Part shown: one piece after another, positions 39,901-45,900 of the stretch
Layout of the letters: every line of letters begins with the position of its first letter
Numbering within the stretch: the stretch's first letter is position 1
Assembly: GCA_965541585.1 (NCBI GenBank)
Contig: CBEUCH010000004.1
Span: forward strand, 128,001-192,000
Direction of reading: 5' to 3'
Length of the DNA: 64,000 nt
DNA from: an uncultured bacterium
GTDB lineage: Bacteria > Zixibacteria > MSB-5A5 > UBA10806
Made by a program: the position numbers

Positions 39901-42900
39901 ATGGAAATCGCCGGGGCCAATCGCGATTACGAGCTCAAGCGGGCCGAGTACCAGGCTATGGTCAACCAGAAAAAAGCCAACGCCGATCTGGCCTACGAGC
40001 TGGAACGTCAGAAGATGAACCAGCAGCTGAAAAGAGAGGAATACCAGGTGCGGCTGGTCGAGAAGGAGCAGGCCATCAAGCTTGAGGAAAAAGAGATTCT
40101 GCGCAAAGAGAAAGAGCTTGAATCCACGGTTAAAAAACAGGCCGATGCCCGCAAATATCAGATGAGAACCGACGCTGAAGCACAGGCCTTCAAGACTGAG
40201 GCGGAAGCCAAAGCGAAGGCTGAGGCCTTAAGGCTGGAGGGCGATGCCGAGGCCGAGACTATGAAAAAGAAAGCACAAGCTTACGCCGACTATAACCAGG
40301 CCGCCGTTTACGAAATGCTGATATCGATTATGCCCGAGCTGGCGAGGGCTGTCTCAGAGCCGCTCTCCAAAGTAGATAAGATCATCATGGTCGACGGCGG
40401 CAGTGGCGGCGGGGCATCCAGAGTGACTAAACAGGTGGCCGATATTCTGGCGCAGTTGCCGGTGGTCATAGAGTCCTTATCAGGCGTGGATATAAAGAAG
40501 CTCCTGGAGAAATTTCCATCCGCTGAAGGTAAGAAAGAGAAGCCGGGCAAAGGTGGCGGGCAATCTTAAGTGCTGTCGTCGATTATATGAGATCAAATTC
40601 ATAGGGGCCCGGTATGCTCTCCGATAGAATCCAGAAAATAGGTTTTTCGCCCACGCTTAAAATATCGGCCAAAGCCGACGCCATGAGGGCCGAGGGTATC
40701 GATGTTATCAATCTTTCCGTGGGAGAGCCTGATTTTCCGACGCCCGATAACATAAAATCGGCGGGCAAACAGGCTATCGACGACAACTTCACCAAATATA
40801 CCGCCAACGACGGCATATTGCTTCTACGGGAAGCTATCGCGAAAAAACTGAAAGAGGAAAACGGGCTCGAATATGGGACCGATGAGATCATTGTATCGCC
40901 CGGTGCGAAAAACTGTATGTACAATCTCTGCATGGCGGTTCTGGATAGCGGCGATGAAGCCATCATCCCGGCGCCCTACTGGGTCAGCTACCCGCAAATG
41001 GTGAATCTCGCCGGTGGCACACCCGTTGTGATCCAGACCAGGGAGGAATACGGCTTCCGAATTACACCTGATGAACTTTCAGCGGCCATCTCGCCATCCA
41101 CCAAACTGCTGATACTGAATAATCCCTGCAATCCCACCGGAGCAGGCTACAGCAGGGAGGAGCTTTCGAAGCTGGCGGAGATTATTGCGGATGAAGGAAT
41201 ATTAGTCGTGTCGGATGAAATCTATGAGAAGCTCGTTTTTGATGGTTTTGAATTTGTATCGTTTGCATCGCTGGGCAAAAAGATCAAGGAACAATCGGTG
41301 ATTGTCAACGGCGTATCCAAGGCTTATTCCATGACCGGATGGCGTATCGGGTATGCCGCCGGTCCCAGGGAGTATATCTCGGCCATGTCGAAGGTGCAGT
41401 CGCATAACACCTCCAATGCTTCATCGGTTTCCCAGATGGCCGCCCTGGAGGCCCTCACCGGTCCGCAGCATGAGATCAGCCGCATGCGAAGCGAATTTCA
41501 GATTAGACGCAACTATATGGTCGACAGGCTCCGCGGAATCCCGGGCATATCATGTTGCGAGCCGCGTGGCGCCTTTTATCTATTCCCCAACATATCATCG
41601 TATTTTAATAAGGAATACGAGGGGATGCAGATCCGCAACTCCTATGGAATGTCATATTATCTTTTAAAACATGCGCACGTGGCTGTCGTTCCGGGTGAGG
41701 CATTCGGTAGCGAGGGATACATCCGGCTTTCGTATGCAACTTCCATGAAGAAGATAGAGGAGGCCATGGATCGTATCGCATCCGCTCTGGCGAAACTGGA
41801 ACCGACCAGGGACGCAAAAGCGATATCACTAAATAATACCATCACGGTCAGAAAGGCGGCCGTCGAGACCGAGACGCATGTCGGCCCGGAGATGCGCGAC
41901 GCTCTCGTGGCAGAGGCGGAGTCGCATTTAACTCACCGGGGATACTACGAGTGGAATGCCAACATTCAGGGCGTGATTATTCAACTCCGGACAAACCTCT
42001 CGCATCTCTATGATTTCTGGGTTGAAAACTGGTACCCGGCTCAGCTGGAGACCGATCTGGAACCGCACGGAATAATCTACGCCGTGGGCTGGATTCCCGG
42101 GCGAGAGCCCCGGGCTTATTATAATAGCGAATCACGGACCGCAATATTCTTCAAATCGGCATACTACGGCCAGTTGAGGTCCCTGGCCCTCGGCATGGCG
42201 GATGATATCGCCTCGAGGCTCTCTAATACATATTCGGTGCGAGGCTTAGCTCTCGATTTCGACGGAAGAGGTCTGGTTATGATCGCTCCCAGGGGTACCG
42301 GCAAGGCCACCTTCTTCGCAAATCTATTGCCCTATCCGAAAAGTAAGATCGTTTCGGATGACGTTGTATTTGTGAGAATTAACAATACTGCTGTCGCGGA
42401 CGTCCCCGAGCGAAAATTCTACATGCAGACCAATCTCGTGGAAAAATATCCTGATTTCGCGCCCCTGTTCGATAAATCCAAGTGCGAAAACGTTATCACC
42501 AATCGCGATGAATGCCTGAACGGCCCCTGCCAGAAACTCGATAACTGCCGGCTCGATCGCGGGTCGCCTTTCTGTTACGAAGCCTCCCCCATCTCAAGGG
42601 CGATGCTCGATCCTTACTGGATCGGAGGGGCTGAAAAACATACCAAGCGAACCAACCTGGAATGGATCCTGCTTTTCAAAAACGATCCCATCAGCCCGGT
42701 GCTAAAAGAGCCATCCGTTGACGAGGCAGTGCGACATTGCGAGGAGGGGCTTACGGAGTCGGGCGCCCTGAGATCCGAACCGTTCTTCAATCCTCATATT
42801 TTTGCCGGCGGCTCTGACCGGATCGATGCCCGACGGCGTTTCTACGAACAGCTTTTCAACATTGCCAGGCCATATTTTATAAACGTAAACGTGGCCTCAA

Positions 42901-45900
42901 AAGATGAAATTCAGAAAAGAATCAATGAAGTTATCGGGATTTGATACAATATGGAGTATTCTAAAGGCGGATGATCATAGATCAGAGCATGTCAATTTTC
43001 CTTAAATTGCGTCGGGGGACTTCTTGTCATCAATATTGATATTCATACTGGGAGTTGTTTTCGGAGCGGCCGTGGTTCTTGTCATCAGCCTGCTCCTTAA
43101 AAGAAAGGCTGGAACCGATGCTCTGCATTTCAAGGAAGAAATGGAGAAGGTTTTCAAGGCGGCCTCATACGATCTATCCAAGCAATCCATTGAAGAGATA
43201 TTAAAAGTCTCAAAGGAGATTCTGGAATCCAAAACTTCCGAGGGCACCGCGGACTTGGAATCGAAGAAAAAATTGATAGACCAGTCTCTCGGCAACCTCG
43301 CTAAGGATATGCAGGAGAGGATGGAGAAGGTTCAACGGCTGATGACGGAAATTAATCAGGCCGTCCCCGAAAAGTACGGCAAGGTATCTTCGGCCATAGA
43401 GCAGATGGCCAAACAGAGCGACGATCTTCGAAAAACGACCGAGTCATTGAATAGGGCGCTTTCATCCACGCAGGTCAGGGGTCAATGGGGAGAGCGGATG
43501 GCAGAGGACATCCTGCGCACAGTCGGCCTGCAGGAAAATATTAATTATGTAAAGCAGAAACCTGTCGAGGGCGGCAAATCGAGACCCGATTTCACTTTTC
43601 TTTTGCCCAATGATCTCAAGGTCAACATGGATGTCAAATTTCCCTATGAAAAATATCGAGATTTTCTCGATGCCGACGGAGATGCCGATAAAGAGCAGGC
43701 CAAAAAGCAGTTTCTGGGCTCCGTGAAGGACAGGATCAAAGAGGTAACAAGCCGTGATTATATCAATCCCGAGGAAAATACGGTCGATTATGTTCTGGTC
43801 TTTATCCCCAATGAGCGGATCTATACATTTATACAGGAATCAGATTCATCTATACTCGATGAGGCATTGAGCCAAAAAGTTATCTTATGTTCCCCGCTCA
43901 CGCTTTACGCCATGCTGGCCTTGATAAGACAAGCTATCGATAATTTTAATCTCAGGCAATCCTCAAGAGAGATACAGGGATTACTGGGCGGCTTCTCAAA
44001 ACAGTGGGAAAGATTTATAGATTCGATGACAACGGTGGGCAGTAGAATAGACAGCGCCAGGTCGGCCTTCGATGAGATGATCGGCACGCGCAAGAGGATG
44101 CTCGACCGCCAGGTTCGTAAAATCGATGAACTGAATAAATCCGAGGGTATCGAGCCGAGAGTGTTACCCGATGATGAAATCGGCGAGATCGAGGATAAAA
44201 GGGATTCCGATAAGGATAATCTGCTGCTTTAGGATTTGATACAAATTGGCCGGCTCTCTAAAATCGGGGAACATTATTGCCTTACAATTGTATATTGTAG
44301 TATATTGCTACCGCACCGTTGAATCTGCATCTAACGACAAAACGAAATAAACCGGTATCCCCGGAGGATAATTATGTTGAAAAGGTCGTTTAATTCCGGC
44401 TGCATCAGAGTACTTATTGCAGTTTTCTGTTTCGCAACTATGGTTGTGCCGATTGCTACAGCCCAGGAAGGAGAATCCGACGCGCCCGCCCCAAAACATT
44501 CTCTCAAAGATGGCGCCTGGGCGCTGCAGTTTCAACTGGGCAGCGCCTTTTCACGCCGCGGATATGATGGAATAGTCATCTCAGCCAAATATCATCTAAC
44601 AAGAGGATCTGCAATTCGCCTGGGTATCGATATCAATGGCGATATTCATTTCGGAGGCCACACAAGTCATCGCGGGACACCCCCGGATGATACCCTTTAT
44701 AGTTCTTCAAGGGATAATATCAATCGTGAGGGAATCAAACTGATATCTGAATATATTAAATACACCCAGATAGATCCGAAACTACATTTCCTCCTCGGAA
44801 TCGGCCCAACTTTCGGGTTTTCGCACTTTAAATCGAAAAGCGAGAGCCGATATACCTACCTTCAGGAGCCCGAAAGCCGTACTTACATTTCCAAGACATA
44901 TAACTGGTCGTTAGGTATTTCCGGTGTACTGGGGGCCGAATGGTTTCCGACAAAAAGAATCAGCGTTATAGCAGAATACGGAGTATCATTCGATTATAGG
45001 TATCAGATAAGAAGATCGGAAGTTATCGGTGATGCACCGACTAAATCCAGTCGCAACAGAAATCATATGAATTATTTCGCCCTAGATCTTCTGGCCGCTA
45101 AAATCGGCATCGCTGTATATTTCTAAATTATTTAGTCCGCCTGTAATCCTCTCATGATCGTTTTACGGATATGAAAAGGCTGTTGTATGGCCGGAATGTA
45201 TCATTTCTTCTTTTCTATCTTTTCTATCTTTTCGTTTAACTCCTCAAATCCCTTCGCATCCCATTCAGGCATCCCTGCTTCCATCAGTTTATTTTTCGCC
45301 TTTTTGAGATGGTCCAGCGCGCTCTTGGGATTCCCTTGCGCCAGCGCAATATCGCCCAATTCGCGATATGAAAATCCTACCCATTCGGCGTTTTCAGGCT
45401 TCGAATCCTGCTCGTATCGTTTCACAGCCCAATCATGAACCTCATTCATCCAGGTGGAAGCGGAATCCAATTGGCCGGTCATCCTGAATGCATGCCCCAC
45501 CGACCAATCGGCGATGAGTTTTGCCAGATCGTTTCCTTTTTTGTAATGATACTCGCGGGCTTTCTTTAATGCCTCCAGCGATTCCTCGTAACGCCCCAAG
45601 TCATCGTAGTTCCAGCCAAGGTTGTTCCATAAGGGCGCCAGCCAACTCTCCAGGTTTCCCTTCTCAGCGGCTTCGATCCCCCTGGCCCCCCACTCGATCC
45701 GCTCCTCCATTCCACCGGTTATGGTCATCATGTTGGCGGCATCCACTGCCCGGTTGAAGAGATCGTTGGCCATGCAGAATTGATACATTTCCTTAAAAGT
45801 ACCGGCGGCAACCGGCGCCTCCGGCGAAACGGCCTTAGCTTCGGCGGCCGCATCCTGCCATTCAAATCGTCCACGCACACCGAGATAGCGTGACCAGCCT

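What a model noticed while it worked through the whole genome (the two positions that open the first line are those of the whole stretch)
40614..42944. Aspartate aminotransferase fused to a miniature PEP-carboxykinase-fold domain that has lost its Mn-site
g01025 is an aspartate aminotransferase (1-390) fused to a 373-aa domain with no Pfam match that folds as a shrunken ATP-type PEP carboxykinase. Fused forms keep the P-loop and nucleotide-side residues but replace the Mn-binding His by Arg, while stand-alone relatives mostly keep His; a four-Cys insertion is conserved. It is likely a nucleotide- or oxaloacetate-sensing/kinase module on AspAT rather than the cell's PEPCK (g00403).
Evidence so far: 943 homologues at E<=1e-3, the best 120 almost all 750-800-aa fusions from Zixibacteria, KSB1, Aminicenantes, Gemmatimonadota. 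AF2 of the domain pLDDT 92.4; Foldseek top hits PEPCKs, E 5e-18, TM(query) 0.77. His site: R in 41 of 47 fused, H in 18 vs R in 6 of 31 mixed/stand-alone rows; P-loop Lys 47 of 47, second Asp 46 of 47, ERK and ENV invariant; Cys634/639/645 invariant. No PDB sequence match.
(Added by a program. Inside this text positions count along the whole contig: contig position 128,001 is position 1 of the stretch shown here. "Call 12" and the like, gene names such as g00115 and contig names such as C1 are that model's own, and its searches are not shown. The text may have been shortened before it was handed on; [...] marks where a part breaks off. The agent that wrote the report below was given it as the finding of a first reader that could run no searches.)

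Follow-up and report, generated by a model that had tools for sequence, protein, structure and literature searches.

The report
Aminotransferase fused to disabled mini-PEPCK
One gene joins an aspartate aminotransferase to a small, catalytically disabled copy of the PEP carboxykinase fold, whose intact free-standing relatives look like an undescribed miniature enzyme linking glycolysis to the citric acid cycle in microbes that lack the usual carboxykinase.

Summary
The fusion is real: a 776-aa frame, aspartate-aminotransferase-like 1-396 plus a 380-aa domain with no Pfam match that folds like PEPCK (Z 28.1). His232→Arg is confirmed (93 of 104), but 'keeps the P-loop' is not: GxGK[ST] survives in 10 of 104 fused-clade sequences versus 69 of 72 stand-alone ones. 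The conserved change is a double swap, K212→R and H232→R, shared with a sister clade of 88 module::PEPCK fusions. Best reading: a pseudoenzyme that binds PEP, oxaloacetate or a similar anion and regulates its host enzyme (inferred). The intact stand-alone relatives keep six of eight PEPCK catalytic residues (K288→R, K213→S). They sit among gap/tpi/mdh/icd genes in Chloroflexota and mostly exclude known PEPCKs: 4 of 52 such genomes have one, against 17 of 18 fusion genomes. They may be a fourth, ~355-aa PEPCK class; loss of K213 argues against. No activity or binding was shown. The scan reported this fusion eight times before in other genomes.

The parts
40614..42944 (+). Whole gene, 776 aa: aspartate-aminotransferase-like domain fused to a disabled mini-PEPCK domain
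   Evidence: ~780-aa frame in 30 of 151 phylum genomes
40614..41801 (+). Class I PLP aminotransferase domain (aa 1-396), closest to subgroup Ib aspartate aminotransferases; K99, D201, K236 (PLP lysine motif), R244, R371 present
   Evidence: PF00155 E 1.6e-80; best PDB sequence match 6f35 aspartate aminotransferase B, E 3.2e-112; motif positions; residue roles recalled
41802..42941 (+). Mini-PEPCK-fold domain (aa 397-776): both PEPCK lobes, without the last ~85 residues of E. coli Pck
   Evidence: AF2 pLDDT 90.5; Z 28.1 to 1ii2; alignment
42177..42179 (+). R522, replaces PEPCK K212; followed by S523 in place of K213
   Evidence: Arg in 102 of 104 and 86 of 88
42240..42242 (+). R543, replaces PEPCK H232
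   Evidence: Arg in 93 of 104 and 87 of 88
42288..42311 (+). P-loop remnant aa 559-566 (K564 kept, T255 position is A565)
42357..42362 (+). D582-D583 (= D268/D269)
42408..42416 (+). E599-R600-K601 (E282 equivalent and two conserved basic residues)
   Evidence: 102-103 of 104
42486..42491 (+). E625-N626 (= E311-N312)
   Evidence: 105 of 105 in the aminotransferase-fused clade; Glu in only 37 of 88 in the PEPCK-fused clade
42513..42575 (+). Four-cysteine insertion C634, C639, C645, C654; a Zn or Fe-S site is inferred, not shown
   Evidence: four or five Cys in 90 of 105 fused-clade and 15 of 72 stand-alone sequences
39172..40569 (+). Flotillin/SPFH gene 44 bases upstream, same strand; probable operon partner
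   Evidence: PF01145, PF15975; upstream of the fusion in 23 of 26 related loci
43024..44232 (+). RmuC-family gene downstream; not a conserved neighbour
   Evidence: PF02646; forms no cluster with any other locus

Best explanation
The protein is a working class I (subgroup Ib-like) aspartate aminotransferase carrying a pseudoenzyme. The C-terminal domain descends from a small, free-standing PEPCK-fold enzyme family. In a common ancestor of two fusion types, the manganese site was rebuilt: K212 and H232 became arginines. The domain can then no longer do PEPCK chemistry but keeps a basic pocket between its two lobes. Most likely it binds PEP, oxaloacetate or a similar anionic metabolite there and tunes the enzyme it is attached to: the aminotransferase in bacteria, PEPCK itself mostly in archaea. 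Both hosts share oxaloacetate. SHOWN: fusion, fold, residue swaps, the two sister clades, gene neighbours, presence of a separate intact PEPCK. INFERRED: loss of catalysis, the ligand, the allosteric effect, aspartate as substrate.
For: Fold. Of the eight residues used to verify ATP-PEPCKs (R65, K212, K213, H232, K254, D269, K288, R333; PMC13147460, passage seen) this protein lacks five: A416, R522, S523, R543, Q605. Across the clade the P-loop decays in many different ways while R522/R543/E599/R600/E625 stay fixed, which is selection on a rebuilt site rather than drift. The same Arg/Arg pair is kept in 86-87 of 88 module::PEPCK fusions of ~890 aa (named sources include Hel-, Hod-, Freyr- and Lokiarchaeota, Bathyarchaeia, Altiarchaeota); their clade (support 1.0) is sister to the aminotransferase-fused clade, joint FastTree support 0.997. 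17 of 18 fusion genomes have a separate ATP- or GTP-PEPCK, as does the own genome. A PEPCK gene lies beside the fusion in 13 of 26 loci, five of which end at or inside the gene.
Against: No ligand, activity or structure with ligand was measured, and the geometry of the arginines in the model could not be inspected. This copy keeps K564, D582-D583, E625 and R662, so some nucleotide or Mg binding is not excluded. The arginines may simply neutralise the acidic residues of the empty metal site and stabilise a scaffold. The aminotransferase scores below the NCBIfam aspartate-transaminase cut-offs (444.8 of 617; 415.5 of 550), and the genome has 15 PF00155 matches, so its substrate is not certain. 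The aminotransferase-fused clade alone has modest support (0.55, 0.83).
Confidence: 0.5

Rival explanations
1. Tether: the disabled domain is a protein-binding adaptor that docks the aminotransferase on the ~610-aa ATP-PEPCK (perhaps at the membrane via flotillin) so that oxaloacetate passes between the two enzymes.
For: PEPCK gene beside the fusion in 13 of 26 loci, ndk right after the fusion in 5, flotillin upstream in 23. The sister clade is fused directly to a related PEPCK subfamily. Non-catalytic positions such as D666, P667 and W669 are fixed in both disabled clades but only 61-67% in intact ones.
Against: 7 of 18 fusion genomes show no PEPCK of this subfamily (6 have only a GTP-type, 1 none); G453 has only the canonical type. 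In the own genome the gene is on another contig. A tether does not by itself explain the fixed arginines inside the cleft.
Confidence: 0.22
2. Still catalytic, with a new reaction: the two arginines replace the metal and the domain acts on oxaloacetate or PEP (for example decarboxylation or phosphoryl transfer).
For: Strict conservation of R522, R543, E599, R600, K601, E625, N626 in the aminotransferase-fused clade; six of 104 members keep His at the 232 position; this copy keeps K564, DD and R662.
Against: R65, Y207, K288 and R333 equivalents vary freely in the clade, and the PEPCK-fused sister clade also loses E311 and R333. The transition-metal cofactor is described as stabilising the enolate in PEPCK catalysis (PMC10441589, passage). 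An oxaloacetate-destroying activity on an aminotransferase would be wasteful (inference).
Confidence: 0.12
3. One reading: a nucleotide sensor or HPr-kinase-like protein kinase on the aminotransferase.
For: K564, D582-D583 kept here; weak NCBIfam HprK-type hits (E 0.016 and 0.068, far below cut-off); PF07475 on 12-18% of members of the nearest Atlas clusters; ndk follows the fusion in 5 loci.
Against: GxGK[ST] in only 10 of 104; a Lys, Arg, Asn or Gln usually stands where the P-loop needs Gly; D268 mostly Asn. HPr kinases match only ~135 of 380 residues at Z 10-11 against Z 28 for PEPCK.
Confidence: 0.1
4. Relic: once a bifunctional PEP-oxaloacetate-aspartate enzyme, the domain now has only a structural role.
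For: Graded decay of catalytic residues along the tree; intact stand-alone genes lie near class I aminotransferases in L082, L100, L123; the fusion is patchy, 31 of 151 genomes in the phylum.
Against: The full-length domain with fixed substitutions is kept across several bacterial phyla and, on another host enzyme, across archaea.
Confidence: 0.06

Closest known systems
ATP-dependent PEP carboxykinase (PckA, EC 4.1.1.49, PF01293; E. coli 1AQ2/1OEN, T. cruzi 1II2)
   Same: Two-lobed fold over 342 of 380 residues (Z 28.1); motif order Y207-K212, H232, P-loop, DD, E282, E311-N, R333 aligns without ambiguity.
   Different: About 380 instead of ~540 aa; no PF01293 match; five of eight verifying residues replaced in this protein; C-terminal ~85 residues absent; four-Cys insertion; fused to an aminotransferase.
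Subgroup Ib aspartate aminotransferases (PDB 6f35 AatB, 6f77 AatA, 1j32, 1bkg)
   Same: Full-length match E 3e-112 to 9e-92, PLP-binding motifs present.
   Different: Carries a 380-aa C-terminal PEPCK-fold domain; the matched bacterial chains are 382-410 aa. Below NCBIfam equivalog cut-offs.
HPr kinase/phosphorylase (PF07475; 1JB1, 1KO7)
   Same: Shares the P-loop lobe with the His...GxGK[ST]...DD pattern (Z 10-14 over ~135 residues).
   Different: The domain also has PEPCK's N-terminal lobe; no PF07475 match for this protein.
Euglena respiratory complex I chain E2 (8J9H_E2)
   Same: A PEPCK-fold chain serving inside another enzyme complex (Z 21.4); a precedent for accessory use of the fold (that it is non-catalytic is recalled, not checked).
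   Different: Eukaryotic, 9% identity, not fused to an aminotransferase.
GTP- and PPi-dependent PEPCKs (9E32, 8E1U)
   Same: Same core fold (Z 20.9 and 14.7).
   Different: 600-1100 aa; the PPi type keeps the lysine pair K335/K336 (PMC13147460), of which this family has only the first.

Membership tests
ATP-PEPCK (fused domain, this protein) | PEPCK two-lobe fold | tested here: met
   Z 28.1, rmsd 3.0, 342 aligned to 1ii2
ATP-PEPCK (fused domain, this protein) | K213 and H232 (Mn ligands with D269; role recalled, residue list from PMC13147460) | tested here: not met
   S523 and R543; D583 present
ATP-PEPCK (fused domain, this protein) | R65 and K212 | tested here: not met
   A416 and R522
ATP-PEPCK (fused domain, this protein) | P-loop K254 with following Thr/Ser | tested here: not met
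   K564 kept but A565; GxGK[ST] in 10 of 104 of the clade
ATP-PEPCK (fused domain, this protein) | K288 and R333 | tested here: not met
   Q605; R662 kept here, Arg in 35 of 105 of the clade
ATP-PEPCK (fused domain, this protein) | PF01293 match above cut-off | tested here: not met
   no family at E<=0.1
ATP-PEPCK (intact stand-alone relatives) | R65, K212, H232, K254, D269, R333 | tested here: met
   66 of 70, 71, 71, 72, 71, 72 of 72; also Y207 69, D268 72, E282 72, E311 72; K288 is Arg in 71; fold Z 33.1 to 1ii2, Foldseek E 5e-19 to E. coli Pck
ATP-PEPCK (intact stand-alone relatives) | K213 | tested here: not met
   Ser in 69 of 72, Lys in 1
ATP-PEPCK (either form) | OAA + NTP = PEP + CO2 + NDP activity | not testable with these tools
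   needs an enzyme assay
HPr kinase/phosphorylase | PF07475 / TIGR00679 match and single-lobe kinase architecture | tested here: not met
   no Pfam hit; TIGR00679 12.4 bits against cut-off 240; extra N-terminal PEPCK lobe
HPr kinase/phosphorylase | Phosphorylates HPr | not testable with these tools
   needs an assay; presence of HPr in the genome was not checked
Class I aminotransferase | PF00155 above cut-off with PLP-lysine motif | tested here: met
   271.5 bits against 19.7; K236 motif
Aspartate aminotransferase, subgroup Ib | Lys at the position that binds the acidic side chain (K109 in the usual numbering; recalled) | tested here: met
   K99 aligns with Lys of AatB 6f35
Aspartate aminotransferase, subgroup Ib | NCBIfam equivalog cut-off (PRK06107, asp_aminotase_Arch) | tested here: inconclusive
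   these are the two best models but scores are below their lineage-specific cut-offs

The most novel reading that the evidence does not exclude
The intact stand-alone relatives (~355-400 aa, up to ~580 aa with insertions) are a fourth, miniature class of PEP carboxykinase, about two thirds the length of E. coli Pck and working without K213. They link PEP and oxaloacetate in many uncultured bacteria and archaea whose genomes show no PEPCK. The window's domain is the disabled descendant of that enzyme, reused as a PEP/oxaloacetate-node regulator on aspartate aminotransferase in bacteria and on PEPCK in Asgard and other archaea.
Probability: 0.5. Interest if true: 0.85.

Novelty: new variant of a known kind. 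Interest (0 to 1): 0.68.

Why it matters
If the stand-alone family is a carboxykinase, it fills a gap at the PEP-oxaloacetate node in metabolic reconstructions: 35 of 49 genomes with the intact gene showed no ATP- or GTP-PEPCK, no pyruvate carboxylase/oxaloacetate decarboxylase domain and no PEP carboxylase (draft genomes; PPi-PEPCK and malic enzyme not tested). It would also be a minimal version of the fold, lying between HPr kinase and full PEPCKs, and a direct test of whether K213 is dispensable. The fused form would be a clear case of an enzyme turned into a regulatory module and reused on two different oxaloacetate enzymes across bacteria and archaea. The stand-alone proteins are listed as hypothetical or unnamed where I looked, and the fusions are named only after their host enzyme.

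Tried and rejected
Complex prediction of the domain (aa 5-380 of the 380-aa piece) with the genome's own PEPCK (aa 1-575): no answer, median score 0.29 against a mark of 0.32, controls not folded; not used as evidence either way. PDB sequence search of the domain: nothing better than E 0.65. Second copy in the own genome: none; the weak hit on C20 (E 0.116) clusters with ABC-transporter ATPases (cluster c10). Pyruvate-kinase or PEP-synthase replacement by the intact family: pyruvate kinase is present in 2 of 5 and a PF01326 protein in 5 of 5 intact-family genomes tested, so no clean complementarity; small sample. Promoter/terminator scan of 38800-45300: 11 and 11 sites against shuffle means 7.9 and 7.5, uninformative. 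PF27840, precomputed on three homologues, is not in the Pfam copy held and has no paper in the library; what it describes is unknown to me and it may already cover part of this family. Literature: no paper held all of the terms; some searches gave listings with no title on this family; subscription papers are not covered, and Chiba et al. 2019 on PEPCK evolution (PMC6916476) is not held. First residue tally for the PEPCK-fused clade had an offset error and was redone. Fisher tests (p 1e-12 for 2 of 51 against 85 of 150) are not relied on because related genomes are not independent. Rows left out: the 62-handle list was cut to 50 genomes for (8 fusion loci, 3 stand-alone loci and the own genome dropped); sequences over 92% identical were collapsed, 204 to 194; P0191, P0215, P0233 were left out of the tree; P0155N and P0191 were left out of the class counts.

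
Full report
1. What is in the window. 40614-42944 (+) is one 776-aa frame, 44 bases after a flotillin/SPFH gene and before an RmuC-family gene. Residues 30-388 match PF00155; the closest solved sequences are subgroup Ib aspartate aminotransferases (6f35, E 3.2e-112) and the PLP motifs are in place. The best NCBIfam models are aspartate transaminases, but below cut-off, so the substrate is likely, not proven. Residues 397-776 (called X here) match no Pfam family and no PDB sequence. In 151 genomes of the window's phylum, 34 have X: 30 in a ~780-812-aa frame, one split across contigs and three in ~580-600-aa frames.

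2. Fold and residue map. AF2 models of X (pLDDT 90.5) and of a stand-alone relative, P0099 (92.6), match T. cruzi ATP-PEPCK over 340-342 residues (Z 28.1 and 33.1). GTP- and PPi-PEPCKs follow; HPr kinases match only the P-loop lobe. I aligned the family to E. coli Pck translated from NC_000913.3. The map is by sequence alignment of motifs, not by superposition. E. coli to window: R65→A416, Y207→Y517, K212→R522, K213→S523, H232→R543, K254→K564, T255→A565, D268/D269→D582/D583, E282→E599, K288→Q605, E311→E625, R333→R662. PMC13147460 (passages seen) lists R65, K212, K213, H232, K254, D269, K288 and R333 as the residues verifying an ATP-PEPCK; X lacks five of them.

3. Family structure. From 204 well-covered sequences, 194 after collapsing at 92% identity, three groups emerge. 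(a) A clade of 105, 66 of them with the aminotransferase part visible: K212→R 102 of 104, H232→R 93 of 104, E-R-K 102-103 of 104, E311-N 105 of 105, but GxGK[ST] only 10 of 104, D268 Asp 9 of 105, R333 35 of 105. (b) 72 long stand-alone proteins with an almost invariant site: R65 66 of 70, Y207 69, K212 71, H232 71, GxGK[ST] 69, D268 72, D269 71, E282 72, K288→R 71, E311-N 72, R333 72, but K213→S in 69. (c) 15 short forms (~320 aa) that keep K212, H232, the P-loop and DD but lack R65 and E311-N. The four-Cys insertion is in 90 of 105 of (a) and 15 of 72 of (b). One stand-alone homologue carries an intein inside the P-loop (P0182).

4. A second fusion type. P0155 (899 aa) has a disabled X in front of a complete ATP-PEPCK. 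A search with its first 330 residues gave 104 hits, 88 of them X::PEPCK proteins; sources name Hod-, Hel-, Freyr- and Lokiarchaeota, Bathyarchaeia, Altiarchaeota and a few bacteria. Their PEPCK halves keep the catalytic motifs in 86-88 of 88. Their X halves have K212→R in 86 and H232→R in 87 of 88, the P-loop Lys in 37 and E311 in 37. They form a clade (1.0) sister to the aminotransferase-fused clade (0.83), joint support 0.997, nested among intact forms when rooted on the short methanogen type (FastTree). The Arg/Arg swap therefore predates both fusions (inference from that tree).

5. Neighbours of the fusion. In 26 fusion loci (25 with both parts seen, plus L028; L014 is frameshifted), flotillin is upstream in 23, a ~610-aa ATP-PEPCK is adjacent in 13 (12 downstream, 1 upstream on the other strand), ndk follows in 5; five loci end at or inside the gene. 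The own genome's only PF01293 protein is of this kind, on contig C2; no GTP-type was found (genome 98% complete).

6. Complementary distribution. Fusion genomes: 17 of 18 have an ATP- or GTP-PEPCK; long stand-alone genomes from the same scan: 0 of 25; short type: 3 of 7 (completeness not given for these). Thermoplasmatota sample of 201: PEPCK in 2 of 51 genomes with X (both short type; 0 of 20 long type, one of them a partial match) and in 85 of 150 without. Nitrososphaeria sample of 121: PEPCK in 93 of 113 without X (this tally includes the unpublished genome G358) and in 4 of 8 with X. Those four are the evidence against: their X has the catalytic signature (one copy is split) and they also hold a divergent ~600-aa PF01293 protein with intact motifs. 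Three own-phylum genomes with the ~580-aa form (93-99% complete) show neither PEPCK type, while two without X have the canonical one. Pooled, 4 of 52 long stand-alone genomes have a PEPCK. Of 49 tested further, 6 have PF02436, 4 bacterial PEPC, 1 archaeal PEPC (also among the 6) and 35 none of these. Kin are not independent and these are draft genomes, but the pattern repeats in Deltaproteobacteria, Chloroflexota, Zixibacteria and several archaeal groups (record titles). PPi-PEPCK and malic enzyme were not tested.

7. Neighbours of the intact form. Among 83 loci examined, five Chloroflexota loci place X among central-carbon genes: gap-tpi-X-icd-mdh (L131), X-icd...mdh (L133), mdh-X-icd (L141), X-mdh (L143), gap-tpi-X (L145); three of the four PF00056 proteins show the Arg motif of malate dehydrogenases (recalled criterion). 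A class I aminotransferase is nearby in L082, L100, L123, citrate synthase in L081, glutamine synthetase in L068, L070, L072, L135. Most other loci show lineage-specific, uninformative neighbours (guaB-guaA in Deltaproteobacteria, TauE in Nitrososphaerales, an alcohol-dehydrogenase-family gene plus PF00155 gene in Armatimonadota-like genomes).

8. Mechanism. Shown: items 1-7. Inferred: the ancestor was a small enzyme at the PEP-oxaloacetate node, probably a carboxykinase (0.5). One lineage replaced K212 and H232 by Arg and lost catalysis, and survives attached to enzymes that make or use oxaloacetate, in cells that have another PEPCK. The retained residues lie at the former metal/substrate site rather than the nucleotide site, so binding of PEP, oxaloacetate or a similar anion with allosteric control of the host is my first choice (0.5); a tether to PEPCK (0.22), a new catalytic activity (0.12), nucleotide sensing or kinase (0.10) and a relic (0.06) are the rivals. 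Against the carboxykinase reading of the intact form: K213 is Ser. That lysine is on the verifying list for ATP-PEPCKs and has a counterpart in the PPi type; an E. coli K213S structure with ATP, Mg and Mn exists (2PY7, title), and I recall that this mutant is strongly impaired.

9. Comparison and novelty. X works like nothing described that I could find; it is not a member of the ATP-PEPCK family (defining residues tested and not met) nor of HPr kinases. Papers seen: passages of PMC13147460, PMC12547629 and PMC10441589, none on this family; other papers only as search listings. Searches returned no paper; the library lacks most subscription journals, and PF27840 may already model part of the family. 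The scan noted this fusion in eight other genomes with the same pseudo-PEPCK reading; look-ups for the stand-alone form returned nothing. Verdict: real, undescribed variant of a known fold; interest 0.68, resting mainly on the testable prediction about the intact family.

Noticed in passing
P0182 (754 aa), residues ~200-395: Stand-alone homologue with an intein (PF14890) inserted directly after the P-loop lysine; inteins favour essential conserved motifs (recalled), which fits an active enzyme.
   Followed up: partly
L059-L062 (Methanothermobacter, Methanobacterium): Short-type X (315-327 aa; no R65, no E311-N) lies after a DeoC/LacD-family aldolase and 3-dehydroquinate synthase II and before a 2'-5' RNA ligase and the CCA-adding enzyme. 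Likely a different substrate; these are culturable organisms.
   Followed up: partly
L083, L084 (G173, G102): Short-type X occurs in 31 of 201 Thermoplasmatota genomes, mostly 1.3-2.3 Mb; in two loci read it shares neighbours that look like Tyw1 and SfsA (recalled resemblance, not scanned).
   Followed up: no
L073-L076 (G274, G270, G266, G260): A further divergent ~600-aa PF01293 subfamily (E ~1e-16) with intact motifs; in L073-L075 it lies near genes that look like phosphofructokinase and an aldolase (not scanned).
   Followed up: partly
P0191, P0216, P0217, P0269: Strongly degenerate stand-alone X proteins (387-410 aa) that keep the Cys insertion but have lost His, P-loop and DD: further pseudoenzyme lineages.
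   Followed up: no
window 39172-40569 (+): Flotillin stays upstream of the fusion in 23 of 26 loci from several phyla; the link to a metabolic enzyme is unexplained.
   Followed up: partly
L014:4806-7158; L072:2216-3480: The fusion is frameshifted in its aminotransferase half in L014, and a stand-alone X is split in L072; assembly errors or broken genes.
   Followed up: no
window 32401-34539 and 34629-36734 (+): Two tandem ~700-aa secreted-looking repeat proteins with near-identical C-terminal ~90 residues; a third of the kind lies beside the PEPCK gene on C2. Resemble LVIVD-repeat proteins with a secretion tail (recalled, not scanned).
   Followed up: no
window 46282-50947: Two multiheme cytochromes (CxxCH motifs visible), a 4Fe-4S protein and a membrane protein, resembling an NrfC/NrfD-type module (recalled, not scanned).
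   Followed up: no
PDB 8J9H chain E2: A Euglena complex I chain has the same fold (Z 21-23), another reuse of the PEPCK fold.
   Followed up: no
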